Part shown: one piece after another, positions 11,900-36,220 of the stretch
How the letters are laid out: every line of letters starts with the position of its first letter
Numbering within the stretch: position 1 is the stretch's first letter
Assembly (NCBI GenBank): GCA_016187485.1
Contig: JACPJO010000005.1
Coordinates: 155,519-219,518 of the forward strand
Reading direction: 5' to 3'
DNA length: 64,000 bases
DNA from: Candidatus Uhrbacteria bacterium
GTDB taxonomy: Bacteria; Patescibacteriota; Patescibacteriia; UBA9934; UBA10169
Notes under the pieces: generated by a model
What the model saw: the letters and a program-made list of their open reading frames with translations, nothing else
Told to the model about the DNA's origin: nothing
Database searches by the model: none
Made by a program: the position numbers and the translations under genes

Positions 11900-12009
11900 C
11901 CGTCCGGATGATAAAATACATTCGTCCTGACAGGTGGAGTAGTAGGTCCTTCACTTAACACGCGTAACGGCTGGCATCCATAAGCCCAGCCAGGCGCACT
12001 GGATAGATC

Positions 12010-12237: not shown

Positions 12238-12299
12238 AGAAGCCCCAACCCCACTTGCGCATCCGAGCCCTACGCAGGCCAGGCGCATGGAGACGTTCG

Positions 12300-17254: not shown

Positions 17255-17269
17255 ACAAACTATTCGCTT

Positions 17270-17281
17270 ATTCGCACGAAT
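17270..17281. promoter_or_regulatory. ATTCGCACGAAT (imperfect copy of the ATTCGCGCGAAT motif), 15 bp upstream of the P6 start
   Basis: Part of the conserved TATTCGCTTATTCGC(A/G)CGAATTAG block. Confidence 0.45.
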
Positions 17282-17290
17282 TAGCCGCGC

Positions 17291-19033: not shown

Positions 19034-19034
19034 A

Positions 19035-20750: not shown

Positions 20751-20761
20751 ACTATTCGCTT

Positions 20762-20773
20762 ATTCGCGCGAAT
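20762..20773. promoter_or_regulatory. ATTCGCGCGAAT perfect 12-bp palindrome, 11 bp upstream of the P4 start
   Basis: Read directly. Confidence 0.5.
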
Positions 20774-20785
20774 TAGAGATCATTG

Positions 20786-22516: not shown

Positions 22517-22524
22517 ATTCGCCT

Positions 22525-22536
22525 ATTCGCGCGAAT
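22525..22536. promoter_or_regulatory. ATTCGCGCGAAT palindrome, 8 bp upstream of the P3 start
   Basis: Read directly. Confidence 0.5.
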
Positions 22537-22796
22537 TAGAGAAGAGAAATAATCTGCTTTGCGCCGGACGGCTGGTCTTTGGAAAGACGATAGAACATCT
22601 CCAGGCTCCGCTGATCACGATCAACGATATCAGCTGCAAAAAGAATCCCCAAATGCTTCGAGGTTGCTTTAAGTGATAGCTTGATCTTATTGGCAATCTC
22701 CCACACCGGTGCTTCCTCTTTTTCTCTTAGGAACTCAACGATCGCAAGCCGCCTGCGGTTCGCCAACGCCTTCAATGTACGCTCTAATTGCCTCAT
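22536..22796 (-). CDS. small ArsR/SmtB-type winged-helix transcriptional regulator (second regulator of the array)
   Basis: 86 aa. NRRRLAIVEFLRE...VWEIANKIKLSLKATSKHLGILFAADIV has the HTH_20-like layout. Preceded by an extended palindrome centred on ATTCGCGCGAAT. Confidence 0.55.
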   Translation of the reverse strand: MRQLERTLKALANRRRLAIVEFLREKEEAPVWEIANKIKLSLKATSKHLGILFAADIVDRDQRSLEMFYRLSKDQPSGAKQIISLL

Positions 22797-22802
22797 ACAA
22801 AA

Positions 22803-22834
22803 CTATTCTATCATTCGCGCGAATTAGAGAATAG
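22803..22834. promoter_or_regulatory. extended palindrome CTATTCTATCATTCGCGCGAATTAGAGAATAG upstream of the small ArsR-like gene
   Basis: Core ATTCGCGCGAAT at 22813-22824 with imperfect outer arms. Confidence 0.5.
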
Positions 22835-22849
22835 ATTTATCCACTATGT

Positions 22850-23485
22850 TTAAGTCGATAGACGTAGGAATGAATTATGTGTCTTTATGACTTCCACGTG
22901 TCCGTCTTGCACAAGAACCGCCTCATCATCCGTTAAGCGGGTGCTCATGACTCCATGCTGTCGCTCATATTCAGCGATCTGTTCTTCTTCAGCCGGTTCA
23001 TAGTGCGGAGTAATGGTGAGATCGACAAGCCCCATACCGCGCATATCCTTGAGATCAACAATGTTTTTATCTCCCCCGACACCAAGTCCTGAATGTCCAA
23101 TATCCTTCCCCGCCACTATCGAGCCGGCGCTTACTCCGATGTAGATCCCCCCTTTTTCTAAAAATGACTTTACTGCTACATCGAAGCCGCTCTCGCGAAT
23201 ATATTTCATGAGGTAATAGGTGTTGCCGCCTTGGACATAGATAATGCGACTGCGCTCAAGTGCTCTTACGGTTTCATCCTGCGTCTTACCAGCCAGATCA
23301 TACTCCTCAACAATCCAACCCATCTGCTCCATTACGACACGGTCTCCGTCCACATAGTGCCAATCCGATTCCGGAACGGACGCCGTGATGATATGCAACA
23401 CATGGGGCGCTCCCTCAAGAGGAGCGACAAACGATTCGATCTCGTGTTTCATTCTCATCCCCGCTGATGTAAGAAAAAGTTTCAT
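22850..23485 (-). CDS. S51-family peptidase (peptidase E / alpha-aspartyl dipeptidase-like)
   Basis: MKLFLTSAG N-terminus, YVQGGNTYYL and YIGVSAGSIVAG (Ser nucleophile in GxSAG) as in PepE/cyanophycinase. Confidence 0.7.
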   Translation of the reverse strand: MKLFLTSAGMRMKHEIESFVAPLEGAPHVLHIITASVPESDWHYVDGDRVVMEQMGWIVEEYDLAGKTQDETVRALERSRIIYVQGGNTYYLMKYIRESGFDVAVKSFLEKGGIYIGVSAGSIVAGKDIGHSGLGVGGDKNIVDLKDMRGMGLVDLTITPHYEPAEEEQIAEYERQHGVMSTRLTDDEAVLVQDGHVEVIKTHNSFLRLST

Positions 23486-23493
23486 GTTCGCCT

Positions 23494-23505
23494 ATTCGCG
23501 CGAAT
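23494..23505. promoter_or_regulatory. ATTCGCGCGAAT palindrome, 8 bp upstream of the S51 peptidase start
   Basis: Read directly. Confidence 0.5.
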
Positions 23506-23517
23506 TAGAGATTGCCC

Positions 23518-25251
23518 CTAGCCGTTCTTCTCGAGATACTCCAAATAACACTTCTTGCAATACACCTTCCGATCTGGATACTTTGCATTGAATGAGATCG
23601 TAACCTCGGCGGAACATGCCACGCAAACGCGCTTCTCGAACCCGCATCCTTGCATCGTACGGAAAAGCTCGATCACGCGCGAGATGAAGTGCTCCTTCGG
23701 TGGAGCAAGACGGAGTTTTCGATAGAGTTCAAGTTCGGCGGGAAGAAAAGCAAACTTTCTGTTTGCCTTCGTATCGAAAATAGGGGTTCTTGTCCATTCG
23801 TCCGTTACCTCGTCGAGTTTGTCGGGGATCTCATCCGGAGATTTCATCGCCGCCCCGGCAGTCTCCACGCCGCACGCACCGTCACTGCATTGTTCGAGCA
23901 TGTTGGCTCCAAGTTTTTTCATCTCCTCAAGACTTGCACCGCAATACAGCATCGAGCCCCCATGCGGCGCGTACGTCGTTGCCATCGACAAGAGGAAGAA
24001 CCTCCCATACTCACCGCGCTCGAGCATCGCACACTTGAGCTCGTCCACACGTCTCCAATACTCCCCAGGAGAGTACGGCTTGTTGAAGATGTGAAACTCT
24101 TTGTGCTGAAGCCCCACGCACCCGAAACAGTTTTTGCAGTTGTAACAGGTGATGCAGTACTCGCAAGTATCCGACCCGATCGTGCGCCAGCACCCGACAA
24201 GCCGCGTGGAATTCGCCGCCGTCATGGACATATAACACTCGGTTGCATTGAATGGACCAAAGCAATCGAAGCACCCATGCGTGTTATGCCCGTATGCGCA
24301 ACGATAATTGTCCGTCGAGTGTTCCGTGAGCGTAAAGCACTCTCGGCAGTTCGTGCAGTCGGTGAGATACTCTCCTGTTGAATCGATCGCTTTCTCATTG
24401 AAGTTCTCCGGCCAGATGGTTTCCGTCTGAAGAAGGTTCTCGAACTTCGCAAATTGCTCCTCCAGGACTCGGCGCGAAGAGAGATCCACGGAGACCCGAC
24501 GTTTCTCCCACTCTTCTTTCGAGAGTTGCTCGTTCCACCAGAGATACTTTCGCCGACGCTTGTTCGTAGCGCCAAAACAATATTCACAATCGCGGCAGTC
24601 AAAGAGAAACGCAGAGTCCACGCAATCGAATGACTCACGCGCCACAAGGCAACGGTACATTCGATCGCAATGAAGCATGTTCCAGCACTGATTGGACTTG
24701 TTCACGGTGATCATGTCGGCACATTCTTCCCCATCAATTAGAAGCACGCTGTAGTAGGCATTCTTTGCTTTGCAGGCCAGCGTGAAATAACAATTCTGGT
24801 CGCCCATGGAGACGAGCGAGATGGAGTTCACCGCCGGAACAATCGTCGAGGTCGCGATCATGGGAATCTTTTTCTGAAGCTCCCGCAGTTGCGGGAAGAG
24901 AGACTGCGCAGGATCGACCTCCAAAGAAATATCCGAGAAGTCCTTGTTGAACCACTCCGCATCTGGCAACACACGAACGCCGGAGGTGGGATGATGAAAC
25001 GACAACACAGGCACACCCGTCTCAAAATGTTTGTTCCACCAAAATTGGTACCCCGTCGTGTAATGCGCCATCAAAACCCATCGCGTGCGTTGTGAATAAC
25101 TCGACGGGGGTACATTCAAACGTCGGCACCAATCGATCTCCTCTTGCGTAAGCACCCACTTGTCGCCGAGCAACGAACAAACCCTCTCGCCGGGTTGGGT
25201 AGCATCAAGGATGACTTTGATTTTCGCGTCGTAACTTGGAGTCCGGGACAT
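23518..25251 (-). CDS. cysteine-rich paralog family protein P2
   Basis: MSRTPSYDAKIKVILDATQPGERVCSLLGDKW, FLFDCRDCEYCFGATNKR, CKNCFGCVGLQHKEFHIFNKPY. Confidence 0.7.
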   Translation of the reverse strand: MSRTPSYDAKIKVILDATQPGERVCSLLGDKWVLTQEEIDWCRRLNVPPSSYSQRTRWVLMAHYTTGYQFWWNKHFETGVPVLSFHHPTSGVRVLPDAEWFNKDFSDISLEVDPAQSLFPQLRELQKKIPMIATSTIVPAVNSISLVSMGDQNCYFTLACKAKNAYYSVLLIDGEECADMITVNKSNQCWNMLHCDRMYRCLVARESFDCVDSAFLFDCRDCEYCFGATNKRRRKYLWWNEQLSKEEWEKRRVSVDLSSRRVLEEQFAKFENLLQTETIWPENFNEKAIDSTGEYLTDCTNCRECFTLTEHSTDNYRCAYGHNTHGCFDCFGPFNATECYMSMTAANSTRLVGCWRTIGSDTCEYCITCYNCKNCFGCVGLQHKEFHIFNKPYSPGEYWRRVDELKCAMLERGEYGRFFLLSMATTYAPHGGSMLYCGASLEEMKKLGANMLEQCSDGACGVETAGAAMKSPDEIPDKLDEVTDEWTRTPIFDTKANRKFAFLPAELELYRKLRLAPPKEHFISRVIELFRTMQGCGFEKRVCVACSAEVTISFNAKYPDRKVYCKKCYLEYLEKNG

Positions 25252-25263
25252 AAACTATTCTCT

Positions 25264-25277
25264 AATTCGTACGAATT
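25264..25277. promoter_or_regulatory. AATTCGTACGAATT perfect 14-bp palindrome (variant of the motif), 12 bp upstream of the P2 start
   Basis: Read directly; overlaps the P1 stop codon. Confidence 0.45.
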
Positions 25278-27018
25278 AGCCGACCTGTTCGAGATACGCA
25301 AGGTAGCACGCCGTGCAGTAAATCTTCCGTTTTGGAAACGCGATGTTTTTGTGTATCACCACTTCCTTTGAGCACTTTTGACATAGGCCCTGCTCGGCCA
25401 TAAAAGTATTCCCTAGTCGAGCGAGCGCACGGATGCGTGTCATGAAATGTCGCCGAGGAAATGGAAGTCTCATGTGCGTATAAAACGCCACATCTTCTTT
25501 TCGTACGGTAAAGGGACGTTCAAGCTCTGGATCCATAATAGGCCTTCCAGCAAACAACGCGCAGGCCTCCAGTCCATCCGGCAACAACTCCGGATCCATA
25601 GACTCACCATACACGGCCGATTGCGAGAGAGAGATGACCGCCCCGCGCTTCGCATCAAAAACAATTCCACCGAGACGAACAACCTCCTCGTCGGTAAGCG
25701 GTGCATGAAGCTCCCCACCCCACTGGATGCCCGACGGAGAAAAGTCTCCAGGGAAAAAGTTCCCGTACTCGTCCCGATCAAGCATCGCGCATTTCAATTC
25801 GTCGAGCTTGTTCCAATATTCTTCCTCAGCATAGGCCTTGTTGAGAATATGAAACTTCTTGTTCTTGAGTCCAACACATCCGAAGCAGTTTTCACAATCG
25901 GAACAATTGAGACAGTACTCGATGTTTTGACAGCGCATGCACGCCGTCGAGAACAAGACGCGACTCCCGTTGATAACACCAACCGCCATGTAGCTGTCCG
26001 ATGTCCCGTCAATTCCGCTCGTGTACGCATTCCCCTGGACGACGGAATGACAAAGCTGGCAGGCGTACATATCCGTCGCAAACGAAAGTCCGAAACCGTC
26101 GGTGCAACGCACGCACTTCATGAGATACTCTCCACTCGACGCCTCACAGCCGACATTGAAGTTTTCTGGCCATACCGCTTCCGTTCGCAACATCTCGAGA
26201 TAGCGTTGCATCCATGACTGAAAAACTTTCCAGGACGTGAGATCCACTTCTTTCATTTTTTGCTCATACGTCTCTTTCGAAAGTTGTTCATTTGCGAAGA
26301 CGTACTTCCGATTGCGCAAATTGCTCCCGAGAAAGCAGGACTCGCAATTGCGGGAATCAAAGAGGAAATCGCAAGACACGCATTCCTGACATTGCATCGC
26401 CACCCGACAGCGATACATTTTTGTAGAGCGGTTGAGCGAAAAGCTTTCTTGTGACGATGTCCCGATAAAGGTGTCCTCGCAATCTTCCAGCTCTTTGCAC
26501 ATGAACCCGTACGCGGAACGTCTGGTGTTTTTCACGCCGCCAAAAACCATAAACGAATCTTCAGCAGAAATAATCCCGACACCCATACTGTTCACAGGGG
26601 TACCAAAGGTGCGTGTCGCTTGAAATGGCACGGCGTGTAATACCTGGCGAAGTTGTGGAAAAAATGGTTGCGCGATATCAAGACCCCTCGCTCCGCGATC
26701 GCTCCAATCCTGTGCGTGCCACAGAGAGTCCTCAACGACCGGAATGGGATTGTCCGGATGGATATAGGAGACGATGAGTTTCTTGGTCACGGCATCGGTA
26801 TTCCACCAGATGGTAACACCGGAGTTGAAACCGAACAGGAGTTTCCGCCGAATCGTCGGCGAAATATCAGAAGGTGGGACCTGGAACTTACGCATCCAGA
26901 TAAGCTCTTCTTCCGTCATCATCCATCTCTCACCTGAAACCGGGCACACTCGCTCGCCGGGTTGTGCGGCGTCAAGGATCGCTTTGATCTGTACATCGTA
27001 GTTGGGGGTATGAGACAT
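25276..27018 (-). CDS. cysteine-rich paralog family protein P1
   Basis: Start trimmed to MSHTPNYDVQIKAILDAAQPGERVCP. CENCFGCVGLKNKKFHILNKAY. C-terminal CQKCSKEV...YCTACY. Confidence 0.7.
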   Translation of the reverse strand: MSHTPNYDVQIKAILDAAQPGERVCPVSGERWMMTEEELIWMRKFQVPPSDISPTIRRKLLFGFNSGVTIWWNTDAVTKKLIVSYIHPDNPIPVVEDSLWHAQDWSDRGARGLDIAQPFFPQLRQVLHAVPFQATRTFGTPVNSMGVGIISAEDSFMVFGGVKNTRRSAYGFMCKELEDCEDTFIGTSSQESFSLNRSTKMYRCRVAMQCQECVSCDFLFDSRNCESCFLGSNLRNRKYVFANEQLSKETYEQKMKEVDLTSWKVFQSWMQRYLEMLRTEAVWPENFNVGCEASSGEYLMKCVRCTDGFGLSFATDMYACQLCHSVVQGNAYTSGIDGTSDSYMAVGVINGSRVLFSTACMRCQNIEYCLNCSDCENCFGCVGLKNKKFHILNKAYAEEEYWNKLDELKCAMLDRDEYGNFFPGDFSPSGIQWGGELHAPLTDEEVVRLGGIVFDAKRGAVISLSQSAVYGESMDPELLPDGLEACALFAGRPIMDPELERPFTVRKEDVAFYTHMRLPFPRRHFMTRIRALARLGNTFMAEQGLCQKCSKEVVIHKNIAFPKRKIYCTACYLAYLEQVG

Positions 27019-27079
27019 AACGCCCACAGTCTATCTCATTTCCCCCAAAAACTAAAAACCCTGCGCCCCGCCGATCTCC

Positions 27080-27101
27080 CAACCTTTCAATTGAAGGGTT
27101 G
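27080..27101. promoter_or_regulatory. operator-like 22-bp inverted repeat CAACCTTTCAATTGAAGGGTTG (one mismatch), about 60 bp upstream of P1
   Basis: Read directly; near-identical to 27342-27363. Overlaps the 3' end of the ArsR-like gene. Confidence 0.55.
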
Positions 27102-27332
27102 TTTGATAAACCGACGCGCTGGCGAGGAGAGAACCACTTCACCAGCTCGGTTTTGTTCAATCAGGCCCACCCGAGCCAGTCGTTTCAAGTGCGAAGATGT
27201 TGCTTGCTCTGAAATGTCGAGTTCGTGGGCAAGATCACAAACAGCAGCCTTGCCGTGTTCGTGAAGGTACATGAAGACAGTGAGACGTCGTTCATTGCCC
27301 AAAGCTCGGAAAAAATCTGCCAGAATTTTCAT
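27087..27332 (-). CDS. ArsR/SmtB-family transcriptional repressor
   Basis: Trimmed to MKILADFFRALGNERRLTVFMYLHEHGKAAVCDLAHELDISEQATSSHLKRLARVGLI, the canonical ArsR HTH with a VCDL motif. Confidence 0.7.
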   Translation of the reverse strand: MKILADFFRALGNERRLTVFMYLHEHGKAAVCDLAHELDISEQATSSHLKRLARVGLIEQNRAGEVVLSSPARRFIKQPFN

Positions 27333-27341
27333 AGATGCCCC

Positions 27342-27363
27342 CAACCTTTCAATTGAAAGGTTG
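27342..27363. promoter_or_regulatory. perfect 22-bp palindrome CAACCTTTCAATTGAAAGGTTG, 10 bp upstream of the ArsR start (autoregulatory operator candidate)
   Basis: Read directly; reverse complement identical. Confidence 0.6.
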
Positions 27364-27393: not shown

Positions 27394-28839
27394 CTACACA
27401 ATAATCTCTCCCATATCAATCGGCTTGGCTTCGGGTTCTTTTGCGACCGAGTCGCCGCCCTCCAATTCTTTTTCTACTTGCACGCGAGGCGTTGCGTACT
27501 TCTCGCGCGACTGTTTAACAATACGCTCGACAAAATTTCCATGCTTGGGCTTGTCCACGGTAAGCACATCGGCAGAAAACGGATCCCATCGGCGCCCGTC
27601 AATCGTCATTTTCACATAAATCTCCCGCTCAGAAAGATTAATCATGTCGTTCACCGAGAAAACTGGCTGCATTTCGTTGGACATAATCTCCGCATCCTCC
27701 GCGCTGATCTGAAATGACACGATAGAGGCGACGTTGCCAAACAAAGATGACCGCAGCGATGGCGAAAGTTGGGAGAGGTTTTGGTTGGCCACCGTCAAAC
27801 AAAAGCCGAATTTGCGCGCTTCGGCCAAAATATTTTCAAATGTCCTTGTGGCGATATTTTGAAACTCGTCTACATAGAGGTAGAACGGGGTACGATCTTT
27901 CTCCGGCAGACGGATGCGCTGCATGGACGCTTGATAGAGTTTTGTCACAAGTACCGCGCCAAAGAAAGCAGATTTCTCGTCTCCCACACGACCTTTCGAC
28001 AGATTCACGAGCAGAATCTTTTTGTTCTGCATGATCTCATACAAGTCGATCTTGCTTTTTTTCTGTCCAAAAATATTGCGGAGCAGCGGATCAGTAAGCA
28101 ACTGGCCGAATTTATTGAGAAGAGGCGACACCGCTTCCGCATCATACCGCTGCGACCACTCCGGAAACTCAATCGCCCAAAACCGTCGCACCACCGAATC
28201 TTTGATATGCTCAATTACCTTACCGCGAAATGGACCCGAGGAAAGCATGGAGACAATGCCGTTCAACGTTCCGTCGGGATAATCAATCATGGCCAGACAC
28301 GAAAAGCGCAGTAAGTGTTCAATGCGTGGAGACCAGTCGGAGGCAAATTGCTTTTTGAAAATCTCGATAATCGAGTCCGTCACCATATGCTTATCCTCGT
28401 CGGCAACGTTGGCAATCGGGTTAAACGCTACGGGAAAATCACGGTCGGCTGGGTCAATCAGCACCACATCATCAATACGATTCTCCGGAATGAACTCCAA
28501 CATGGAGTTGATCAAATCTCCATGCGGATCCACAACACCCACCGCGTGGCCAAAATGAATATCCGCTCGCATGAGAAGTTCCATGAGTTTTGTTTTCCCC
28601 ACGCCAGACTTCCCAATCACATACAAATGGCGACGACGATCGCGGCGCTTAATACCAAAAATGTACCGCTTCGCTGCATAGCCGGTGGAAAAGTTTGTTT
28701 TACCAAAAAGAGAAATCTCTTCCGGTGCGACGTCTTGCGGGGTCGGGAGAGTATCGGGTGGTTCATGACGCCGAGCAACAAACGTCTCCAGTTCTCCGTC
28801 GCCCGCCGTTGTCGGTGATTGAAAAAGTGGATCGGCCAT
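27394..28839 (-). CDS. FtsK/HerA-superfamily P-loop ATPase, TraD/VirD4- or DUF87-like (paralog 1)
   Basis: Walker A GKSGVGKT, DPHGD motif, Walker B FYLYVDEFQN followed by AEARKFG. 481 aa. Confidence 0.65.
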   Translation of the reverse strand: MADPLFQSPTTAGDGELETFVARRHEPPDTLPTPQDVAPEEISLFGKTNFSTGYAAKRYIFGIKRRDRRRHLYVIGKSGVGKTKLMELLMRADIHFGHAVGVVDPHGDLINSMLEFIPENRIDDVVLIDPADRDFPVAFNPIANVADEDKHMVTDSIIEIFKKQFASDWSPRIEHLLRFSCLAMIDYPDGTLNGIVSMLSSGPFRGKVIEHIKDSVVRRFWAIEFPEWSQRYDAEAVSPLLNKFGQLLTDPLLRNIFGQKKSKIDLYEIMQNKKILLVNLSKGRVGDEKSAFFGAVLVTKLYQASMQRIRLPEKDRTPFYLYVDEFQNIATRTFENILAEARKFGFCLTVANQNLSQLSPSLRSSLFGNVASIVSFQISAEDAEIMSNEMQPVFSVNDMINLSEREIYVKMTIDGRRWDPFSADVLTVDKPKHGNFVERIVKQSREKYATPRVQVEKELEGGDSVAKEPEAKPIDMGEIIV

Positions 28840-28842
28840 ACA

Positions 28843-30699
28843 TCACCACGGAAAAATACTCGGCTCTTTTGCCACTTGCAGGGGCTCCTCCTCTTCCCCA
28901 TCATCCCCACCGTCATCTTTCTGTGGAGCACTCCCCGCGGACGGTGGGGAATTTCCATGAGGCTTCTTGTGACGGCGGCGTTTACGCTTTCCTCCTTCAT
29001 CCGGACGAGAACCCACAGAGACGGTCGGTGCATTCGTCGGCGTCACAGGAGAAGTTGCCACAGAAACAGAGGCTGCAGGTGTCGGGGTCGTTATCCCTGT
29101 TGGACGAGGAGCGCTTAGCGCCGACAACGACACCTCTCCCACCGTCTCCGTCCTCACCACTTCAGCGTCTTTCATAACAGAGACCGGCGTTTCTCCAGGT
29201 CTGGACGGTTTTTTACCGGCTTTGCGTTCTGCCTTCACAATATCAATGCAATCTTCACAGTAAATCGGCCGCGAGCGATCCAGTTCAACCGGTAACTCCA
29301 TGTGTTTTTGGCATCGCGAACACGTATACTCATGCATCCACGACTTCTTCTTCGACACAGGCGGCGCAACTTCTGGAATTTCTGGAAGCGCCCCCTCTTC
29401 GATCACGGGTTTACTTTCACTCCACCGCAGAATCCGCTCTTCCACAAGTTCGCGCGGGACGGCATATTGCTGTCGGGAAGCCGCAATAACCTTCACCTCA
29501 TTCTTTGTGTGAATCTGGATTGGCGGAAGCGTTACGGCAGAGAACGGATCACCGGCAATTCCTTTCGAGAGAAGTTTCAAATAAATGTTTGCCTTGGGGA
29601 GATTTACAAGGTCGTCCTCGATAAATTTTGGCGCAAACTCCACGGCTAATTTTTCTGCATCGGCCGATCCTACACGGAACGAAATAAGCGTTCCGGCGTT
29701 TCCAAACACGGCCGCTTCGACCGTTTCATCCAGCTGCTCAATGTATTGGTGAGCCATGATAAGCGCGAGGCGGTATTTACGCGCTTCGGAGAGAATGTTC
29801 GCAAACGACTCCGTGGCAAAGTTTTGAAATTCGTCAATGTAGAGGTAGAAGTCCTCACGAGCTTCCTCCAAAATATCCACGCGCGCCATTGCGGCAAGCT
29901 GCATCTTTGTCACAAGAAGCCCCCCAAGCAGCCGGCTTGCGTCCTCCCCAATACGTCCCTTCGACAGGTTCACAATAAAGATGTGGTTTCCATCCATGAT
30001 GTGGCGCATGTCAATCGTGGACTTCTCTTGTGCCACGATGTTGCGCACAAGCGAGGTAGAAAGAAACTGGCCGACCTTGTTTTGAATCGGCGCAATTGCT
30101 TCCGTGCGAAACTTTGGATCCCACTGCTCAAATTCTGTCACCCAGAAAGCCTTCACCACCGGATCTCGAATGCCCGCCACAATTTTCCGGCGGAAGTCGC
30201 GGTCTACAAGAATACGGTTGATGCCAAGAAGGGTATTCCCGGGATTTTCCAGCAAACTCAAAATACAGTTATTCATGATGTGCTCCATGCGTGGACTCCA
30301 CACATCCGGCCAAATCTTTTTAAAGACGCCCATGAGACCCGAGGCAATCACGTGCTTGTGGCTATCGTCCACGGCTTCGAGTACGTTGAACCCAATGCAA
30401 TGATTGAGATCGGATGGATTGAAATACACGACGTCATTGATCCGATGCTCGGGAATGGCATCAATGATCTTCTCGGCAGAATCCCCGTGCGGATCAATAA
30501 ATCCGACGCCGTGGCCGTAGTAGATGTCGGCCAAGATCATGTTTTCAATCAGCGTCGTTTTTCCCACACCGGATTTTCCCACAATGTACATGTGCCGGCG
30601 GCGATCATCCGTGCGAATGCCAAACTTCCGCAAACGGTTGCGGAAGTTTGTTCGCGCGAAGAAAATTACATCTTGTTCGTGATCGTGAAAGTATTTCAT
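28843..30699 (-). CDS. FtsK/HerA-superfamily P-loop ATPase (paralog 2) with a C-terminal CxxC...CxxC zinc ribbon and a Pro/Thr/Lys-rich tail
   Basis: GKSGVGKTT, DPHGDS, FYLYIDEFQN, SEARKYRL; CSRCQKH...CEDC. The start may be 30726 (26-bp overlap) or the internal ATG at 30699. Confidence 0.65.
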   Translation of the reverse strand: MKYFHDHEQDVIFFARTNFRNRLRKFGIRTDDRRRHMYIVGKSGVGKTTLIENMILADIYYGHGVGFIDPHGDSAEKIIDAIPEHRINDVVYFNPSDLNHCIGFNVLEAVDDSHKHVIASGLMGVFKKIWPDVWSPRMEHIMNNCILSLLENPGNTLLGINRILVDRDFRRKIVAGIRDPVVKAFWVTEFEQWDPKFRTEAIAPIQNKVGQFLSTSLVRNIVAQEKSTIDMRHIMDGNHIFIVNLSKGRIGEDASRLLGGLLVTKMQLAAMARVDILEEAREDFYLYIDEFQNFATESFANILSEARKYRLALIMAHQYIEQLDETVEAAVFGNAGTLISFRVGSADAEKLAVEFAPKFIEDDLVNLPKANIYLKLLSKGIAGDPFSAVTLPPIQIHTKNEVKVIAASRQQYAVPRELVEERILRWSESKPVIEEGALPEIPEVAPPVSKKKSWMHEYTCSRCQKHMELPVELDRSRPIYCEDCIDIVKAERKAGKKPSRPGETPVSVMKDAEVVRTETVGEVSLSALSAPRPTGITTPTPAASVSVATSPVTPTNAPTVSVGSRPDEGGKRKRRRHKKPHGNSPPSAGSAPQKDDGGDDGEEEEPLQVAKEPSIFPW

Positions 30700-30700
30700 A

Positions 30701-32446
30701 CTAACGGACGTCGTCCATTGTATCACGAAGCCCTACATCTTCCGGCTCAACCCCTTGCTCAATAAGCACGCGGATTTCATCGGGAATACCTGCCGGTGAT
30801 CCTGTCTTCAAATGCGAAGGGGTGGGAGGACGTGCATCGTATGCGTTCGCGCGCGGGGCGATATTTTGCGGCGTCAGTGAGGAGGACGGCGCAGCATGCG
30901 CGGTCGGAGCTACTGGCCGCGGGGCAGAAAGGCCCTCTGCCGGTCTATCGGCATGAGCATCTCCTTCGATTGCCACTTCGTGCGACGGCGCCGCTTTAGC
31001 GTGGGATGTATGCACAACCTCGCCCATCCCATGCGCGGGCGGAATAGCCATAGGCATCTCGAATAAATCCGCCGGCGCCTCTTCCTTTTGTACTTCCCCG
31101 CCCGGCAGAATCATTTTGGGCGCGACCAACATTTCCTCTTCTTCATCGGCAAACGGCGTATCTGTAGGCGGCTCGGCACGCTTGGCGAGCGTCTTCTTGA
31201 TAAGCGGCACCTTTACGTTGATCGTCGGGAAGTGCCAGAGCGTCGCCAACTCCTCAGTGTTCAACACAAACGCCTCGGCGCCAATCTCGGTACTTCTCTC
31301 CACATATCCTTTCATGAGCTTGTTTTGGTAGTACGCGTACCACCACACTTGCCAGAAGTAGTCATCTTCCGGACTCCCATGCCCCGTAAAGGCGTTCAAA
31401 TCTTGGTGTGCGAGCTGCTTGAGGAATCCTTTCACGATATCTTTGCGTGTCACCTTCGTGAAGACTTCTTTGCGCGCTACATAGATCACGCGGATTTTTG
31501 TCTTGAGCCCTGGTTTGCCGATCTTGCGCACAACCGATTTACTGATTTCCCGCTCCTGCTCTGTAACTTTAAACGCCTTCCATACCTCTTCTTGGAATTT
31601 ATCTTTCCCGGCCTCGGCCTCACCTCCCAGAATGTCTCCAATTACGACGCCCGGTACCGATGCAATCGCGCCGCCGATGGCGCCCAACAAACCGCCGGAT
31701 TCTGCATGCTTGTTACTCACCCCATAGGTCTTTTTGATAAAGGCGTCCCCCTCTTCTTTCCATTCTTCGCCCGCATGCTCAGTAAGCACTTGAAACCATA
31801 ATTGCTCGCCGGGCTTCATCTGCGCCATCCCTTCAAAAAGTGTGACAAGCGGGTCCTTGAGGTCCTGTGTCAGCGAGTGCTCAAAATCTACATAGGTGCG
31901 CACAGACATGAAACTTGGTTTCGCAAGCACGTACTCTGCCCCCCATACGTCCCACTGCTCATGGGGAAAATGGTGCGGCACCTCCTTCGCGTAGTCATCG
32001 ACGAGAGCAATTTCCGCATCGGGGTATTGTGCATAAATAACCGCTTCATAGACATCGCGATACCGCTGCTCCGTCCAAATGTAAAATTGGATATAGCCGT
32101 TAATCGAGGCAATCTCAAAACTATGGCGCCAGGGCACCTTTCCCATGAGGTACGTCTCAAGCCACGTGGGAGAAGCTTTCAGGGCAACGGTAACACCAAA
32201 GATGTTTTCCACGGCACGGGGACTTTGCTCCGTGAGGCGTGGGACATCTATCGCAAGTAGGATATACGGCCGGTGGTGGCGCCAATAATGGCGCTGCATC
32301 TCAAGCCACATTTCAAAAATGCCGTAGAGGAAGACGACAAGAAACGGGATCCAGCCGAAATACAACAAGAGATCAATGATGATCTCGTCCACCGGCTGGT
32401 TCAGAAATTGCGACAGGGTAAACCCTCCAATTGTCGCAAGAAGCAT
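30701..32446 (-). CDS. large membrane-anchored hypothetical protein (N-terminal TM helices, long Pro/Ala-rich C-terminal tail)
   Basis: 581 aa; hydrophobic N-terminus. Operon-like juxtaposition with the two ATPases. Confidence 0.55.
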   Translation of the reverse strand: MLLATIGGFTLSQFLNQPVDEIIIDLLLYFGWIPFLVVFLYGIFEMWLEMQRHYWRHHRPYILLAIDVPRLTEQSPRAVENIFGVTVALKASPTWLETYLMGKVPWRHSFEIASINGYIQFYIWTEQRYRDVYEAVIYAQYPDAEIALVDDYAKEVPHHFPHEQWDVWGAEYVLAKPSFMSVRTYVDFEHSLTQDLKDPLVTLFEGMAQMKPGEQLWFQVLTEHAGEEWKEEGDAFIKKTYGVSNKHAESGGLLGAIGGAIASVPGVVIGDILGGEAEAGKDKFQEEVWKAFKVTEQEREISKSVVRKIGKPGLKTKIRVIYVARKEVFTKVTRKDIVKGFLKQLAHQDLNAFTGHGSPEDDYFWQVWWYAYYQNKLMKGYVERSTEIGAEAFVLNTEELATLWHFPTINVKVPLIKKTLAKRAEPPTDTPFADEEEEMLVAPKMILPGGEVQKEEAPADLFEMPMAIPPAHGMGEVVHTSHAKAAPSHEVAIEGDAHADRPAEGLSAPRPVAPTAHAAPSSSLTPQNIAPRANAYDARPPTPSHLKTGSPAGIPDEIRVLIEQGVEPEDVGLRDTMDDVR

Positions 32447-32461: not shown

Positions 32462-33370
32462 TCACGAATGGGAGAGAGCGTGCTTTTTGTCCCACTCATG
32501 CCACGTGACAAGAAGAGGCGACGCAATGAAGATCGAAGAGTAGGCTCCCGCCGACATACCGATAAGAAGCGCCAGAGCAAACGAGCGTGTGGTCTCCCCG
32601 CCAAAAAGAAAGACGGCAAGAATCGCCAAAAGAGTTGTGAGAGTCGAATTGATAGAGCGAGCGTAGGTTTGCCGTAAACTTTTCGTCACAAGTCCGCTCA
32701 AATCTCGGCCGCCTTCACGGGCAAGATTTTCCCGCGTGCGGTCAAACACGACAATCGTGTCATTAATTGAGTACCCAAGAATCGTGAGAATAGCGGCGAC
32801 AAACGCCGTATCCACCTGAAAGGACTGCGAACGTCCCAACACGGCAAAGACTCCGAGTGGAATAAGAATGTCATGCAATCCTACAAGGACGGTCAGCACC
32901 GCATATTTCCATGAGGCGACCGGTTCGGAAACTTTCCGGAACATCCAGGTGATGTACACCACAATAAGGAGAACGGAAAGCACGAGACCAAAGAGCGACT
33001 TCCGCTTAAGTTCAGAGCCAATCACCGGGCCCACCGAATCAAACCTTCGCTCCTCAACAGTGCCGAATTTCTCTCGGAGTGCTCCAAGAAGCGCTTGGTG
33101 TTTTTCTTCCGATAGAACGGGCAGCCGCATAAGCGCTCCCTGCTCTTCTGTCTCTTGCACGACCGCTTCGGGGTATCCCGCTTCTTTCACCGCCTCGCGC
33201 ACGACGACCACCTCCGTCGCTGTCTCGAAGCGCACCTCCATCAAACTCCCGCCAGTGAAGTCAATCCCAAATGGCAGATGGAAAACAATGAGAAGCACGA
33301 TACTGGCTGCGGCAATAGTGCCAGAAACGGCATACCAAATTTTTCGTCCGGCAATAGGATGAAGGGTCAT
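32462..33370 (-). CDS. secF: protein translocase subunit SecF
   Basis: IDFTGGSLMEVRF, six TM helices, SINDTIVVFDR motif. Start trimmed to the ATG abutting the secD stop. Confidence 0.85.
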   Translation of the reverse strand: MTLHPIAGRKIWYAVSGTIAAASIVLLIVFHLPFGIDFTGGSLMEVRFETATEVVVVREAVKEAGYPEAVVQETEEQGALMRLPVLSEEKHQALLGALREKFGTVEERRFDSVGPVIGSELKRKSLFGLVLSVLLIVVYITWMFRKVSEPVASWKYAVLTVLVGLHDILIPLGVFAVLGRSQSFQVDTAFVAAILTILGYSINDTIVVFDRTRENLAREGGRDLSGLVTKSLRQTYARSINSTLTTLLAILAVFLFGGETTRSFALALLIGMSAGAYSSIFIASPLLVTWHEWDKKHALSHS

Positions 33371-35373
33371 ACGGAAGCTTTTTGAGATACGCCATACCAC
33401 CACGAACGCTTGGCGAACTTACTTACGACGAGAAGGAGAAGACGGCTTACCGTAATGGTGGTGAACATGGAGAGAAGAATACCGATTGAGAGCGTAACGG
33501 CGAAACCTTTAATAAAGCTTGTACTGAAGAGAAAGAGCACGGCCGCGGTGATGAGCGATGTGGCGTTTCCGTCACGGATGGATGTCCATGCGCGCTTGAA
33601 GCCTTCGATCATTGCCATATGCAGGTCACGCCCATCGCGGAGTTCTTCTTTAGTGCGCTCGAAGATGAGAACGTTTGCGTCTACAGCCATACCAAGCGAG
33701 AGGATGAAACCCGCGATCCCAGAAAGCGTCAATGTTACACCGAAGATTTTATACGCAGCAAGGTTGAGAAGCGCGTAAATAGTAAGCGCAATGATCGCAA
33801 TGACACCGGAGAGCCGATAGTACAAGACCATGAAGAGAGCGACGAGGAAAAAGCCGATAAGGCCCGCCTTGAGTGACCGGTCGAGCGAGTCGGCGCCGAG
33901 CGTGGGACCAACCGTGCGCTGCGAGAGAAGCTCGACGGGCACGGGAAGCGCGCCGGCGTTGAGACGCTGCGCCAATAGTTTAGCTTCTTCTACCGTAAAG
34001 GTTCCCGAAATAACGGCGCGGCCTCCATAGATCGCCTGCTGGACAACCGGCGCCGAGATCACCTCGCCGTCAAGGAAGATGGCAATTTGCTGCTTGATGC
34101 GTCGCGCCGTGATCTCCCCAAACAACTTGTCGCCCTCCGCATCAAATTGAAGCGCAACATAGGGTTGGCCGGTGGATTGATCGAACTCAACGCCGGCGCG
34201 CTCAAGCTGCTTGCCTGAAAGCGGCGTGTTCACCCATGCCCCCGCATCGGGCGCAACATCCCACGGCTGCGTGAGTTTGGAGACGTTGCGTGTCATGGTG
34301 TACGTTTTCACCGGCTTTTCTGCGCGTTTCAAAAAGACGTGATAGCCATACTCTGTTTCGACGGCGCTCGATACGCTTCCCACAGGAAGAGAGCGCACTG
34401 CCAACTCCGCTGCCGGCGGCAAAAATCCCGGTTGCGTCCACGAAAGTTCTCCGCCGTTTTCTTTGGCAGAGGGATCCGTGGAAAATTCACGGGCACGGTC
34501 GGCAAAATTCTCTGCCATAATGCCGTCTGTTGCCTTTTGCACTTGGATAGACGCCTCAATCGCCGGAATGGGATTAGGACAATTCGTTTTCCCTTCAAAA
34601 CAAATAAGAATGTGCGAGAGATCCCATTCGGTGTCTTCCCCGACAGAATCCAATCGGAGAACATTGATGCCCTCGGCGTTTTCCTCGGATGTATACCCAC
34701 CCACACGAATTTTGTTTGTCACAATGGCAGACACGAGCGGCCCGTAGAGCGGGTGCGCGGGCGCAATGTTTGTGAGTGTTTCCGTTTGCGTGTCCCCAAA
34801 TCCCTCTCGACGAGCTTTCGCAAGAAGATCCTTTGCCGCCTTGCGCTCCTCGGCCTGCTTTGTTTCCAGTTCTGTTTTCTGTTCAGGGGTCAGCCCTTCT
34901 TGATTCGCCCCAGGTTCTTTAAATTCCAAAATGGGTGTCTCGCCAATTTCACGAATCGCTTCGGATACATCAAGCACTCCTGCTAAATCGACAACCACGC
35001 GATAGCCCCCGCCGCTTGTGATCGTCTGCACAACCGGTTCAGAAACCCCGAAAGCATTCACACGGCGCTCAATAACATCACGCACGCCCTCAAGCGCTTC
35101 GTCTCGCTCGGATGAAGGAATATCACTCATGTCAGCACCGTACTCCAAGTGCGTGCCGCCCTTTAGATCAAGGCCTAAACGATAAGACTCGGTAGAAAGC
35201 CCCGGAAGCCCAATAGCTTGAAAGGCTTGCGGCACGGCAAACCCAAGCGCTAAAAGAACAAGAACCACAAGGACACTGATTTTCGCCCAGAGCCAAGAGC
35301 GGCCGCTGCCGGAACTTCTGGATGCTTGAGAGCGGTGCTTTGCATCAAGGTACTTACGATAGCTATAACCCAT
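33367..35373 (-). CDS. secD: protein translocase subunit SecD with an embedded parvulin-type PPIase domain
   Basis: SecD TM bundle LSGIAGFILSLGMAVDANVLIFER. The periplasmic region contains SHILI...FSTDPSAKENGGELSW...VETEYGYHVF, matching PpiC/parvulin. Confidence 0.8.
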   Translation of the reverse strand: MGYSYRKYLDAKHRSQASRSSGSGRSWLWAKISVLVVLVLLALGFAVPQAFQAIGLPGLSTESYRLGLDLKGGTHLEYGADMSDIPSSERDEALEGVRDVIERRVNAFGVSEPVVQTITSGGGYRVVVDLAGVLDVSEAIREIGETPILEFKEPGANQEGLTPEQKTELETKQAEERKAAKDLLAKARREGFGDTQTETLTNIAPAHPLYGPLVSAIVTNKIRVGGYTSEENAEGINVLRLDSVGEDTEWDLSHILICFEGKTNCPNPIPAIEASIQVQKATDGIMAENFADRAREFSTDPSAKENGGELSWTQPGFLPPAAELAVRSLPVGSVSSAVETEYGYHVFLKRAEKPVKTYTMTRNVSKLTQPWDVAPDAGAWVNTPLSGKQLERAGVEFDQSTGQPYVALQFDAEGDKLFGEITARRIKQQIAIFLDGEVISAPVVQQAIYGGRAVISGTFTVEEAKLLAQRLNAGALPVPVELLSQRTVGPTLGADSLDRSLKAGLIGFFLVALFMVLYYRLSGVIAIIALTIYALLNLAAYKIFGVTLTLSGIAGFILSLGMAVDANVLIFERTKEELRDGRDLHMAMIEGFKRAWTSIRDGNATSLITAAVLFLFSTSFIKGFAVTLSIGILLSMFTTITVSRLLLLVVSKFAKRSWWYGVSQKASV

Positions 35374-35417
35374 AATTGGGGAGAAGTGTAGCGGAGGGAG
35401 AAAAGGAGCGCAAGCGA

Positions 35418-35446
35418 TTGACAAATTCCCCTTTTTTGTGCAGAAT
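35418..35446 (+). promoter_or_regulatory. sigma70-like promoter: TTGACA, 17-bp spacer, CAGAAT
   Basis: Hexamers read directly, about 45 bp upstream of the GGDEF gene's ATG. RBS AAAGGAAG. Confidence 0.45.
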
Positions 35447-35489
35447 GGGATGTCCATACTGGACACCTCACGCCAAGAAAGGAAGCGAC

Positions 35490-36192: not shown

Positions 36193-36220
36193 CACCCCTC
36201 CGGGTGCGTTTCTGCTTTTA
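36193..36220 (+). terminator. intrinsic-terminator-like hairpin GCACCCctccGGGTGC plus GTTTCTGCTTTT
   Basis: Read directly after the GGDEF stop. A member of the conserved 3' module family. Confidence 0.55.

What the first reader, a model, noticed from the sequence alone, without database searches (positions are those of the whole stretch)
27394..32446. Two tandem paralogous TraD/HerA-like ATPases plus a large membrane protein, co-transcribed upstream of the Cys-rich array: a candidate minimal translocation module
Both ATPases share Walker A G-K-S-G-V-G-K-T, a D-P-H-G-D motif, Walker B Y-L-Y-(V/I)-D-E-F-Q-N and an (A/S)-E-A-R-K motif. These are characteristic of the FtsK-HerA superfamily (conjugative coupling proteins TraD/VirD4/TrwB and DUF87/AAA_10). 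The second ATPase adds a C-terminal zinc ribbon and a basic Pro/Thr-rich tail. The upstream 581-aa protein has N-terminal TM helices and a long Pro/Ala-rich tail. Gene junctions are tight or overlapping (30701/30699 and 28843/28839), which suggests one operon. The module is contiguous and co-oriented with the ArsR gene and the Cys-rich array. No other T4SS or T4P components (VirB4, B6, B8-B10) are adjacent. This could be a reduced DNA- or protein-translocation system. It could also be a conjugative-element remnant.
Basis: partly seen in the sequence, partly recalled or inferred. Interest (0 to 1): 0.65.

Follow-up and report, generated by a model that had tools for sequence, protein, structure and literature searches.

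The report
Split membrane-tethered VirB4/VirD4-like ATPase module
The three genes are real and form a membrane-anchored motor related to conjugation ATPases. It is not a plasmid remnant but a chromosomal module inherited across the ultra-small Patescibacteria, placed next to the protein-export genes secDF and arrays of unusual cysteine-rich proteins, and its cargo is unknown.

Summary
Three tightly packed minus-strand genes encode a 581-aa membrane protein and two paralogous ATPases (41% identical).

The ATPases have no TM segment and are closest to coupling proteins (TrwB, DotL).

The window is core chromosome of a Candidatus Uhrbacteria bacterium, with no integrase, relaxase or tRNA. DUF8128 has no match in 72,556 plasmids.

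- secD-secF-(σ70r4/HARE-HTH)-DUF8128-ATPase is conserved across Patescibacteria: the ATPase follows in 58 of 70 loci.
- The two ATPases are ancient orthologous groups.
- The short ATPase lies within 2.5 kb of a Cys-rich paralog gene in 34 of 39 independent loci.
- Fused DUF8128-ATPase proteins occur in Bacillus phages.

Best reading: a split, membrane-tethered VirB4/VirD4-type translocation motor. The cargo is unproven; I favour the leaderless Cys-rich proteins over DNA. The orphan coupling-protein homologues were already reported. I found no paper linking them to DUF8128, secDF or the Cys-rich arrays.

The parts
33367..35466 (-). secD, with a PPIase (rotamase) insertion. Conserved upstream neighbour of the module.
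   Evidence: Pfam SecD_1st, SecDF_P1_head, SecD_SecF_C, and Rotamase at residues 281-379. Same order in related loci.
32462..33403 (-). secF. Ends 15 nt before the DUF8128 gene.
   Evidence: SecD_SecF_C E 4.4e-54. Junction sequence. SecF or the sigma70r4/HARE-HTH gene lies within 2.5 kb upstream of DUF8128 in 61 of 63 loci.
30701..32446 (-). DUF8128 (PF26449) membrane-anchor protein, 581 aa.
   Evidence: Homologues carry precomputed PF26449. The family has 3,027 50%-identity representatives at E<=1e-3. AlphaFold2 model.
32309..32383 (-). Single TM helix (residues ~22-46), followed by the basic stretch QRHYWRHHR. This implies an N-out, C-in topology.
   Evidence: KD19 maximum 2.43 at residue 22. 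Model helices 19-57. A TM-like segment is present in 71 of 79 homologues. The topology is inferred from the positive-inside rule and from the fusion to an ATPase in phage G.
31202..32275 (-). Cytoplasmic alpha/beta domain (residues ~58-415) with a VirB4-like fold, inferred to correspond to the VirB4 N-terminal domain.
30704..31192 (-). Disordered Pro/Ala-rich tail (residues 419-581).
   Evidence: pLDDT below 50 except for a short helix at 556-562. Tail length varies among homologues.
28843..30699 (-). ATPase-2 (the 'ATP2' orthologous group): a soluble TrwB/VirD4-like ATPase with a C-terminal zinc ribbon and a basic disordered tail.
   Evidence: Pfam and NCBIfam hits. The ATPase directly downstream of DUF8128 is ATP2-type in all but one of the 58 loci (one unclassified). 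Its orthologue in Giovannonibacteria is 57% identical to ATP2 and 43% to ATP1.
29248..29322 (-). CxxC-x17-CxxC zinc ribbon of ATPase-2. The same domain type ends the Cys-rich array proteins.
   Evidence: PF23477 E 4.8e-6 (26.6 bits, gathering score 27) and TIGR04272 E 3e-6. PF23477 also matches residues 541-569 of the 577-aa array protein, weakly (E 0.0033). A CxxC...CxxC pattern is present in 48 of 58 orthologues.
27394..28839 (-). ATPase-1 (the 'ATP1' orthologous group): a soluble TrwB/VirD4-like ATPase without a zinc ribbon.
   Evidence: 100% identical to an NCBI Candidatus Uhrbacteria protein. 55-56% identical to orthologues in the Jorgensenbacteria-type loci L009/L010 and 54-56% to those in Giovannonibacteria and Liptonbacteria. 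Those orthologues are ~80% identical to each other.
27087..27332 (-). ArsR/SmtB-type HTH regulator; the probable ATG is at residue 30 of the ORF.
   Evidence: HTH_5 E 1.7e-8. Start inferred. An ArsR homologue also sits between an ATPase and Cys genes in L108, L169 and L175, and heads the cluster in L173.
27346..27359 (.). Palindrome CTTTCAATTGAAAG, a candidate ArsR operator. It overlaps a promoter-like site upstream of arsR.
   Evidence: 2 matches in the window against 0.35 expected, though 4 of 100 shuffles also gave 2 or more. Promoter-like site 27352-27325 on the minus strand.
27084..27097 (.). Second copy of the palindrome (1 mismatch), in the arsR stop region and ~60 nt upstream of the first Cys-rich gene.
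   Evidence: The surrounding ~24 nt are nearly identical to the first copy.
15515..27027 (-). Array of six leaderless Cys-rich paralogs: 25276-27027, 23518-25251, 20786-22516, 19035-20750, 17291-19159 and 15515-17254. A peptidase S51 gene (22850-23485) and an 86-aa ORF (22536-22796) interrupt it.

Best explanation
The trio is a two-part, membrane-tethered translocation ATPase of the VirB4/VirD4 lineage.

Proposed mechanism:
- The DUF8128 protein spans the membrane once. It presents a cytoplasmic domain with a VirB4-like fold.
- This domain recruits the soluble TrwB-like ATPases, which carry the nucleotide-binding and all-alpha domains but have no TM segment of their own.
- Together the two polypeptides rebuild the architecture that VirB4 has in one chain. 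Bacillus phage G gp156 and SPO1-type gp27.4 still have it in one chain.
- By analogy with TrwB and VirB4, the ATPases would form hexameric rings. ATP hydrolysis would thread a polymer substrate towards a membrane conduit.

The module is a vertically inherited chromosomal feature of Patescibacteria and is wired to secDF. The two ATPases are ancient paralogs with distinct roles. ATP2 (with the zinc ribbon) is the usual direct partner of DUF8128. ATP1 travels with arrays of leaderless, fast-diverging Cys-rich proteins that end in the same zinc-ribbon type.

My pick for the cargo is these Cys-rich proteins, that is, protein export or delivery.

What is shown and what is inferred:
- Shown: gene anatomy, family assignments, fold similarity, synteny statistics.
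- Inferred: physical docking of DUF8128 with the ATPases, hexamer formation, topology, the identity of the conduit and the cargo.
- My confidence is about 0.8 in the architecture and about 0.35 in the cargo.
For: ATPases:
- T4CP-type by profile.
- Catalytic motifs are intact in both. They are also intact in 58 of 58 (Walker A) and 56 of 58 (Walker B) orthologues.
- No TM segment.

DUF8128:

Fusion proof of partnership:
- phrog_5156 (824 positions) matches DUF8128 at profile positions 80-357 and the ATPases at 402-806.
- The DUF8128 profile aligns to phage G gp156 residues 17-324 at 96.8% probability.

Synteny:
- The ATPase lies directly downstream of DUF8128 in 58 of 70 species-representative loci, mostly within a few nucleotides or overlapping.
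- SecF or the sigma70r4/HARE-HTH gene lies upstream in 61 of 63.
- The order secD-secF-sig-DUF8128-p172-ATP1-Cys-Cys... recurs in Paceibacteria-type loci, with a Cys gene within 2.5 kb of ATP1 in 34 of 39.

Other support:
- Both paralog types are present in Giovannonibacteria.
- The zinc-ribbon type is shared by ATP2 and the array proteins.
- A split VirB4 has a precedent in pGO1 TrsD+TrsE.
- Published background: 5,713 VirD4-type homologues in 2,918 Patescibacteria genomes, only 148 near virB4 and only 109 relaxases; the authors say exaptation cannot be ruled out (PMC12102498).
Against: - No direct evidence of interaction, oligomeric state, ATPase activity or secretion.
- The VirB4 similarity is structural only. 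hhalign of the DUF8128 profile against TrwK and against pGO1 TrsD finds nothing. Foldseek E-values are marginal (1.4e-3) and TM-scores are low. The tools do not report which TrwK residues were aligned.
- The Cys-rich proteins have many CxxC motifs, which is more typical of cytoplasmic metal-binding proteins than of exported ones. They could be partners or regulators rather than cargo.
- In about 17% of loci the ATPase is not adjacent to DUF8128.
- Most ABY1-type loci show only DUF8128+ATP2, with no ATP1 or Cys genes nearby.
- Phage and plasmid-like relatives sit next to DNA-handling genes (Replic_Relax, Rep3, ParA, Alp). This favours DNA as the ancestral substrate.
- The T4CP homologue was reported non-essential in Southlakia.
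- secDF linkage could be conserved synteny without functional coupling.
Confidence: 0.5

Rival explanations
1. DNA translocase. The DUF8128-anchored hexamers pump DNA (uptake, export or segregation) without a relaxase, in the manner of FtsK/SpoIIIE, Streptomyces TraB or the archaeal Ced system. The zinc ribbon, the basic tail and the neighbouring sigma70r4/HARE-HTH protein would supply DNA recognition.
For: - The canonical T4CP role. The alignment to TrwB includes the all-alpha domain region.
- Weak NCBIfam similarity to CedD and CedB.
- ATP2 carries a zinc ribbon and a KRKRRR tail.
- A DNA-binding HARE-HTH protein lies directly upstream of DUF8128 in many lineages.
- SPO1-type gp27.4 lies next to a Replic_Relax protein and an actin-like segregation protein. 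The Microcystis element carries Rep3 and ParA.
- Non-essentiality in Southlakia parallels that of comEC.
Against: - Relaxases are almost absent from Patescibacteria.
- No DNA-processing gene sits in the conserved CPR neighbourhood.
- This reading does not explain the 87% linkage of ATP1 to Cys-rich arrays or the secDF linkage.
- The HARE-HTH protein may simply be a regulator.
Confidence: 0.25
2. A conventional coupling protein working in trans. The ATPases are the substrate receptors of the Patescibacteria VirB4-type T4SS encoded elsewhere in the genome. DUF8128 merely replaces the missing TM domain.
For: - T4CP genes are often encoded away from virB4 (PMC12102498).
- The Southlakia T4SS cluster lacks a recognisable coupling protein.
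- The family assignment is T4CP.
Against: - The T4SS is essential in Southlakia, but the T4CP homologue is not.
- Only 148 of 5,713 homologues lie near virB4.
- The VirB4-like domain of DUF8128 would duplicate a part that the T4SS already has.
- The conserved partners here are secDF and the Cys arrays, not T4SS genes.
- Whether this genome has a virB4 cluster could not be tested.
Confidence: 0.15
3. A remnant of an integrative or conjugative element, or of a prophage.
For: - T4CP-like ATPases are typical of such elements.
- Fused relatives occur in Bacillus phages.
- An IS200-like Y1 transposase gene lies ~14 kb upstream at 46597-47250.
Against: - The flanking genes are housekeeping: SecA, SecDF, MurB, MurC, BacA, MnmA, LepA, RecJ, DnaB.
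- No integrase, relaxase or tRNA in 64 kb.
- Synteny is conserved across classes of Patescibacteria.
- ATP1 orthologues are ~80% identical within the Paceibacteria-type set.
- No DUF8128 match in 72,556 plasmids, and one weak hit in IMG/VR.
Confidence: 0.02
4. An anti-phage defence ATPase (MADS mad8-like or HerA-type).
For: PADLOC mad8 E 8e-16 and 3e-16, plus weak DndH and HerA hits.
Against: - The matches are generic P-loop similarity to part of a 314-position model.
- DUF8128, the Cys-rich protein and p172 have no PADLOC hit.
- No methyltransferase or nuclease partner is adjacent.
- Near-universal, syntenic, highly conserved core genes are unlike defence islands.
Confidence: 0.03

Closest known systems
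Type IV coupling proteins (TrwB of R388, VirD4, TraD, DotL, pGO1 TrsK)
   Same: - FtsK-HerA-type nucleotide-binding domain with Walker A, Walker B and the EARK/sensor-Q motifs.
- Collinear alignment through the all-alpha domain region.
- These are the only PDB sequence hits.
   Different: - No N-terminal TM domain in the ATPase polypeptide.
- No relaxase or mating-pair-formation genes nearby.
- Chromosomal, vertically inherited, two ancient paralogs per genome.
- One paralog has a C-terminal zinc ribbon.
- Scores are far below all NCBIfam TraD/VirD4 equivalog cut-offs.
VirB4 (TrwK of R388) and the split VirB4 of monoderm systems (pGO1 TrsD + TrsE)
   Same: - N-terminal scaffold domain plus C-terminal ATPase is the VirB4 domain order.
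- Splitting into two genes has a precedent in TrsD/TrsE.
   Different: - No detectable sequence similarity of DUF8128 to TrwK or TrsD.
- The ATPase partner resembles T4CPs. It resembles VirB4 only around Walker A.
- DUF8128 has its own TM anchor instead of relying on VirB3.
- No VirB3, B6 or B8 genes nearby.
Bacillus phage G gp156, SPO1-type gp27.4 (phrog_5156)
   Same: Homologous to both DUF8128 and the ATPase, fused in one chain of 825-906 aa.
   Different: - Phage-encoded. gp156 has only ~16 residues ahead of the DUF8128 domain, so no TM anchor.
- Neighbours are a second VirB4-like ATPase (gp155), or Replic_Relax and actin-like proteins.
- 21-28% identity only.
T7SS EccE with the FtsK-like EccC
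   Different: Much weaker similarity. No EccC-type triple ATPase, WXG100 substrates or other Ecc genes.

Membership tests
Type IV coupling protein (VirD4/TrwB/TraD) | FtsK-HerA-type nucleotide-binding domain with Walker A/B, scoring above the Pfam TrwB_AAD_bind threshold | tested here: met
   38.2 and 34.5 bits against a cut-off of 20.5. Motifs located.
Type IV coupling protein (VirD4/TrwB/TraD) | All-alpha domain inserted between Walker A and Walker B | tested here: inconclusive
   hhalign aligns profile columns 56-352 to TrwB 118-393, at 96.4%. That range contains the TrwB all-alpha domain as I recall it. The ATPase structure was not modelled.
Type IV coupling protein (VirD4/TrwB/TraD) | N-terminal transmembrane domain in the same polypeptide | tested here: not met
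   Max KD19 about 1.07 in both ATPases. A TM-like segment occurs in only 5 of 58 orthologues.
Type IV coupling protein (VirD4/TrwB/TraD) | Genetic association with a relaxase and/or VirB4-type mating-pair-formation genes | tested here: not met
   None in the 64-kb window. The literature reports 148 of 5,713 homologues near virB4.
Type IV coupling protein (VirD4/TrwB/TraD) | Reaches a curated NCBIfam equivalog cut-off (TraD, CD1115 VirD4-like) | tested here: not met
   Best 50.6 bits against a cut-off of 250.
VirB4 | VirB4 N-terminal-domain fold | tested here: met
   [not shown]
VirB4 | N-terminal domain and ATPase domain in one chain, with sequence similarity to VirB4 throughout | tested here: not met
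   They are two genes here. DUF8128 against TrwK gives 0.3% probability. The ATPases match TrwK and TrsE only around Walker A.
VirB4 | Neighbouring VirB3, VirB6 and VirB8 | tested here: not met
   The neighbours are secDF, arsR and the Cys-rich array.
DUF8128 (PF26449) | Match to the Pfam model | tested here: met
   Indirect. 118 of the 120 listed homologues (35-81% identical) carry precomputed PF26449. The local Pfam copy lacks this model, so the direct scan returned nothing.
FtsK/SpoIIIE proper | Multi-pass N-terminal domain, FtsK_SpoIIIE motor and gamma wHTH domain | tested here: not met
   No FtsK_SpoIIIE or gamma-domain hit in Pfam or NCBIfam.
HerA helicase | HerA equivalog score; HAS barrel; NurA partner | tested here: not met
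   DUF87 is below threshold, and NF040819 scores 15.9 bits against 970. No NurA nearby.
Integrative conjugative element or plasmid remnant | Integrase, relaxase, tRNA/att site, patchy distribution, presence on plasmids | tested here: not met
MADS defence system (mad8) | mad8 together with the other MADS genes | tested here: not met
   Only a partial mad8 hit. The partner proteins have no PADLOC hit.

The most novel reading that the evidence does not exclude
DUF8128 plus the ATP1/ATP2 ATPases is the motor of a previously unrecognised, Patescibacteria-wide secretion pathway. Its dedicated substrates are the leaderless, diversifying Cys-rich beta-solenoid proteins encoded beside it. The pathway works alongside Sec/SecDF or through an unknown conduit. 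The module is a deep branch of the VirB4/VirD4 lineage that keeps the ancestral layout of scaffold domain plus ATPase.
Probability: 0.2. Interest if true: 0.85.

Novelty: new variant of a known kind. Interest (0 to 1): 0.62.

Why it matters
Patescibacteria carry about two 'orphan' coupling-protein homologues per genome. Their role is an acknowledged open question (PMC12102498).

This analysis gives them a partner (DUF8128), an architecture (a split VirB4-like motor), a fixed genomic address (after secDF) and a candidate cargo family. Together these turn the question into direct experiments in the few cultivable strains.

For organisms with ~1-Mb genomes, keeping this module matters. ATP1 is ~80% identical across the Paceibacteria-type orthologues, and up to 10 kb is spent on the adjacent paralog arrays. 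That argues for an important cell-envelope or host-interaction function.

The module also bears on how the two T4SS ATPases, VirB4 and VirD4, diverged.

Tried and rejected
- **Local Pfam and NCBIfam scans of the membrane protein** returned nothing. The local Pfam copy lacks PF26449, so the family came from precomputed hits on homologues.
- **Sequence-level links of DUF8128** to TrwK/VirB4 and to pGO1 TrsD gave no signal. The link is structural only.
- **PDB sequence search with the membrane protein**: none.
- **Plasmid tblastn with DUF8128**: none. IMG/VR pattern scan: one weak partial hit.
- **Literature search for 'DUF8128'**: zero papers.
- **Defence-system reading** (mad8, HerA): rejected for lack of partner genes.
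- **ICE or prophage reading**: rejected on context.
- **VirB6/TraG-like channel idea for the membrane protein**: rejected, because there is one TM helix and the fold is VirB4-like.
- **FtsK replacement**: considered but not pursued. No FtsK-type domains are present, and papers on TM7x mention FtsK (not read in detail).
- **The representative-library search** lists only the top 150, all stand-alone proteins of 218-691 aa. Distant, fused or non-CPR members could not be enumerated.


Full report
**1. Observation**

The three minus-strand ORFs are as described.
- The two ATPases are paralogs: 41% identity over 435 aa, E 3e-125.
- Both carry GKSGVGKT, DPHGD, YLY(I/V)DEFQN, (S/A)EARK and an A(H/N)Q sensor-like motif at the coordinates listed.
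- ATPase-2 adds a CxxC-x17-CxxC zinc ribbon (PF23477 and TIGR04272), a KRKRRR run and a low-complexity tail.
- The junctions are 1 nt and 3 nt. In addition, secF ends only 15 nt upstream of the membrane-protein gene.
- Neither ATPase has a hydrophobic segment. The 581-aa protein has one, at residues ~22-46.

**2. Organism and setting**

ATPase-1 and one array protein are 100% identical to proteins of a Candidatus Uhrbacteria bacterium with HYW18_ locus tags.

The window encodes PilM, RecJ, LepA, MnmA, an HD protein, BacA, SecD (with a PPIase insert), SecF, SecA, MurB, MurC, SHMT, FolD, DnaB and a family-4 glycosyltransferase (MraY/WecA type). It has no integrase, relaxase or tRNA. This is core chromosome, not a mobile element.

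**3. The ATPases**

- Pfam places both in TrwB_AAD_bind, T4SS-DNA_transf and TraG-D_C.
- NCBIfam gives only sub-threshold TraD and VirD4-like hits.
- A family profile aligns to R388 TrwB residues 118-393 at 96.4% probability. It aligns over 311 columns to the pGO1 coupling protein.
- It aligns to the VirB4 proteins TrwK and TrsE only around Walker A.
- TrwB and DotL are the only PDB sequence hits.

So the ATPases are coupling-protein-like but lack the coupling-protein TM domain.

**4. The 'membrane protein'**

Its homologues carry PF26449 (DUF8128) and are all from Patescibacteria. The family has 3,027 50%-identity representatives at E<=1e-3.

The AlphaFold2 model (40-sequence alignment) is confident for most of residues 20-415. 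It shows N-terminal helices, an alpha/beta domain and a disordered tail from residue 419.
- Foldseek independently ranks eleven TrwK chains first, then ESX-3.
- Sequence profiles see no similarity to TrwK or to TrsD, the stand-alone VirB4-N-terminal-like protein of pGO1.

**5. The two parts belong together**

- PHROG phrog_5156 (824 positions) is hit by DUF8128 at profile positions 80-357 and by the ATPases at 402-806.
- Bacillus phage G gp156 (825 aa) aligns to the DUF8128 profile over residues 17-324 (96.8%). It aligns to ATPase-2 over its C-terminal half.
- SPO1-type gp27.4 (906 aa) shows the same collinear layout more weakly.
- In 80 GTDB species-representative loci, an ATPase lies directly downstream of DUF8128 in 58 of 70 testable cases, usually within a few nucleotides.
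- Those ATPases keep Walker A (58/58) and Walker B (56/58). They carry a C-terminal CxxC...CxxC in 48 of 58 and lack TM segments in 53 of 58. DUF8128 has a TM-like segment in 71 of 79.

**6. Wider conserved neighbourhood**

- SecF, or a sigma70-region-4/HARE-HTH protein, lies within 2.5 kb upstream of DUF8128 in 61 of 63 loci.
- Uhrbacteria close to the window have secD-secF-DUF8128-ATP2-ATP1-Cys array. More distant Uhrbacteria have secD-secF-DUF8128-ATP2 followed by hydrolase, BacA and HD. There ATP1, arsR and the array are absent at this site.
- Jorgensen-, Lipton- and Giovannonibacteria-type genomes have sig-DUF8128-p172-ATP1-Cys (usually as an array), preceded by secD-secF in the Jorgensen- and Lipton-type loci. 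Giovannonibacteria also have an ATP2 orthologue with a zinc ribbon a few genes further on.
- ATP1 and ATP2 are therefore two ancient orthologous groups. This fits the ~2 T4CP homologues per genome reported in PMC12102498.
- ATP1 orthologues are ~80% identical across the Paceibacteria-type orthologues aligned.
- In 80 independent metagenome loci, a Cys-family gene lies within 2.5 kb of ATP1 in 34 of 39 loci with both flanks available. p172 is adjacent in 38 of 55.

**7. The Cys-rich proteins**

- They have no signal peptide, 27-35 Cys each and no Pfam or NCBIfam family. They are restricted to Patescibacteria.
- They are modelled confidently (pLDDT 84.7) as N- and C-terminal domains flanking beta-solenoid-like segments. 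There is no significant PDB neighbour.
- They end in the same zinc-ribbon type as ATP2.

**8. Regulation**

- No terminator-like site falls in the junctions of the trio. A good one lies upstream of secD at 36152-36137.
- A palindrome CTTTCAATTGAAAG occurs twice. One copy overlaps a promoter-like site upstream of arsR. The other is in the arsR stop region, ~60 nt upstream of the first array gene.
- This suggests that arsR and the array are controlled separately from secDF-DUF8128-ATP2-ATP1.

**9. Mechanism**

The best-supported reading is a split VirB4-like machine. DUF8128 anchors and organises T4CP-like ATPase rings at the cytoplasmic face of the membrane, and these rings translocate a polymer.

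For the cargo I favour the adjacent leaderless Cys-rich proteins, for four reasons: the neighbourhood statistics, the shared zinc ribbon, the secDF linkage and the scarcity of relaxases.

DNA is a serious rival. The evidence for it is the family precedent, the basic zinc-ribbon tail, the HARE-HTH neighbour, and phage or plasmid-like relatives that sit beside Replic_Relax, Rep3, ParA and Alp genes.

Docking, oligomerisation, topology, conduit and cargo are all inferences.

**10. What is known and what is new**

- Quiñonero-Coronel et al. 2025 reported abundant VirD4-type homologues in Patescibacteria. Most are far from virB4, and the authors say exaptation cannot be ruled out.
- Wang et al. 2023 noted that the Southlakia T4SS cluster lacks a coupling protein.
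- NCBI names these proteins 'type IV secretion system DNA-binding domain-containing protein'.
- DUF8128 is a Pfam DUF with no paper in the searchable library.
- I found no report of the DUF8128 partnership, its VirB4-like fold, the secDF synteny, the ATP1/ATP2 split or the link to Cys-rich arrays.

**11. Limits**

- The locus sets are the top 80 from pattern-based retrieval.
- ORFs were called mechanically and classified by BLAST against window and L009 queries.
- The structures are predictions.
- The rest of this genome, for example a virB4 cluster, could not be examined.

Noticed in passing
window 27346-27359 and 27084-27097: The palindrome CTTTCAATTGAAAG, within a ~24-nt near-identical repeat, brackets arsR. 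One copy overlaps a promoter-like site upstream of arsR. The other lies ~60 nt upstream of the first Cys-rich gene. It is a candidate ArsR operator, which implies metal- or redox-responsive control of the array.
   Followed up: partly
window 33367-35466: SecD carries an inserted PPIC-type PPIase (rotamase) domain at residues ~281-379. The insert is present in the Uhrbacteria-type loci whose Pfam content was listed (681-700 aa). It is absent from the shorter SecD (415-421 aa) of Paceibacteria-type loci.
   Followed up: partly
L009 8481-8999; L010 8496-8993; L093 7087-7650; L094 8410-8883: In Paceibacteria-type loci a small protein (157-187 aa) lies between DUF8128 and ATP1. It has an N-terminal TM helix and a conserved R-N-x-L-V-H-(T/S)-P motif, which is an Rx4H, HEPN-like motif. 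It has no Pfam or PADLOC hit and is absent from the window.
   Followed up: partly
L009 5888-6901 and many loci L034-L089, L096-L168: A protein with sigma-70 region 4 plus a HARE-HTH domain (337-430 aa) lies immediately upstream of DUF8128 in most non-Uhrbacteria lineages. It may be a regulator or a DNA-recognition partner.
   Followed up: partly
alignment A4 (ATP1 orthologues): ATP1 orthologues of the Paceibacteria-type set are ~80% identical. The conserved part includes an N-terminal Y-A-P-P-P-P-x-L-P-x-Y-G motif ahead of the ATPase core (APPP, L and P invariant; Y and YG at least 90%).
   Followed up: no
L176 (Bacillus phage Goe10) 1774-7284: The fused homologue in SPO1-type phages (gp27.4) sits between small membrane proteins, an actin-like ALP protein (gp27.9) and a Replic_Relax protein (gp27.3). 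This looks like a plasmid-like DNA-handling cassette inside a lytic phage.
   Followed up: partly
L001 (Bacillus phage G) 1196-5338: Phage G encodes a second VirB4/TraG-P-loop-type ATPase (gp155, 549 aa) directly upstream of the DUF8128-ATPase fusion gp156. This echoes the tandem-ATPase layout.
   Followed up: partly
window 22536-23485: A peptidase S51 gene (22850-23485) and an 86-aa ORF (22536-22796) interrupt the Cys-rich array between its second and third copies.
   Followed up: no
window 46597-47250; L093 9197-9832: An IS200-like Y1 transposase domain protein lies between the SHMT and FolD genes. A similar Y1_Tnp gene sits right after ATP1 in the Giovannonibacteria locus.
   Followed up: no
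L009 17731-18036; L093 12448-12753: A CutA1 (divalent-cation tolerance) gene follows the Cys-rich genes in two Paceibacteria-type loci. Together with ArsR, this hints at a metal connection for the array.
   Followed up: no
window 36218-37489 and 10678-12288: Two sizeable ORFs (423 aa and 536 aa) have no Pfam match. The 423-aa one also has no NCBIfam match; the 536-aa one was scanned only against Pfam at E<=1e-5.
   Followed up: no
L019, L020, L025 and about 25 other loci: Many GTDB records titled 'uncultured Gammaproteobacteria bacterium' (co-assembly bins, isolate names of the form binchicken_* or SRP*_co*) carry the Patescibacteria-type DUF8128-ATPase module, most of them with secDF upstream. 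Their titles look like mislabels.
   Followed up: no
L003 809-3527 versus L004 735-3527: SecA is called as two pieces (670 aa and 248 aa) in the NCBI assembly, but as one 930-aa gene in the near-identical JGI contig. This is probably a frameshift or an assembly error.
   Followed up: no
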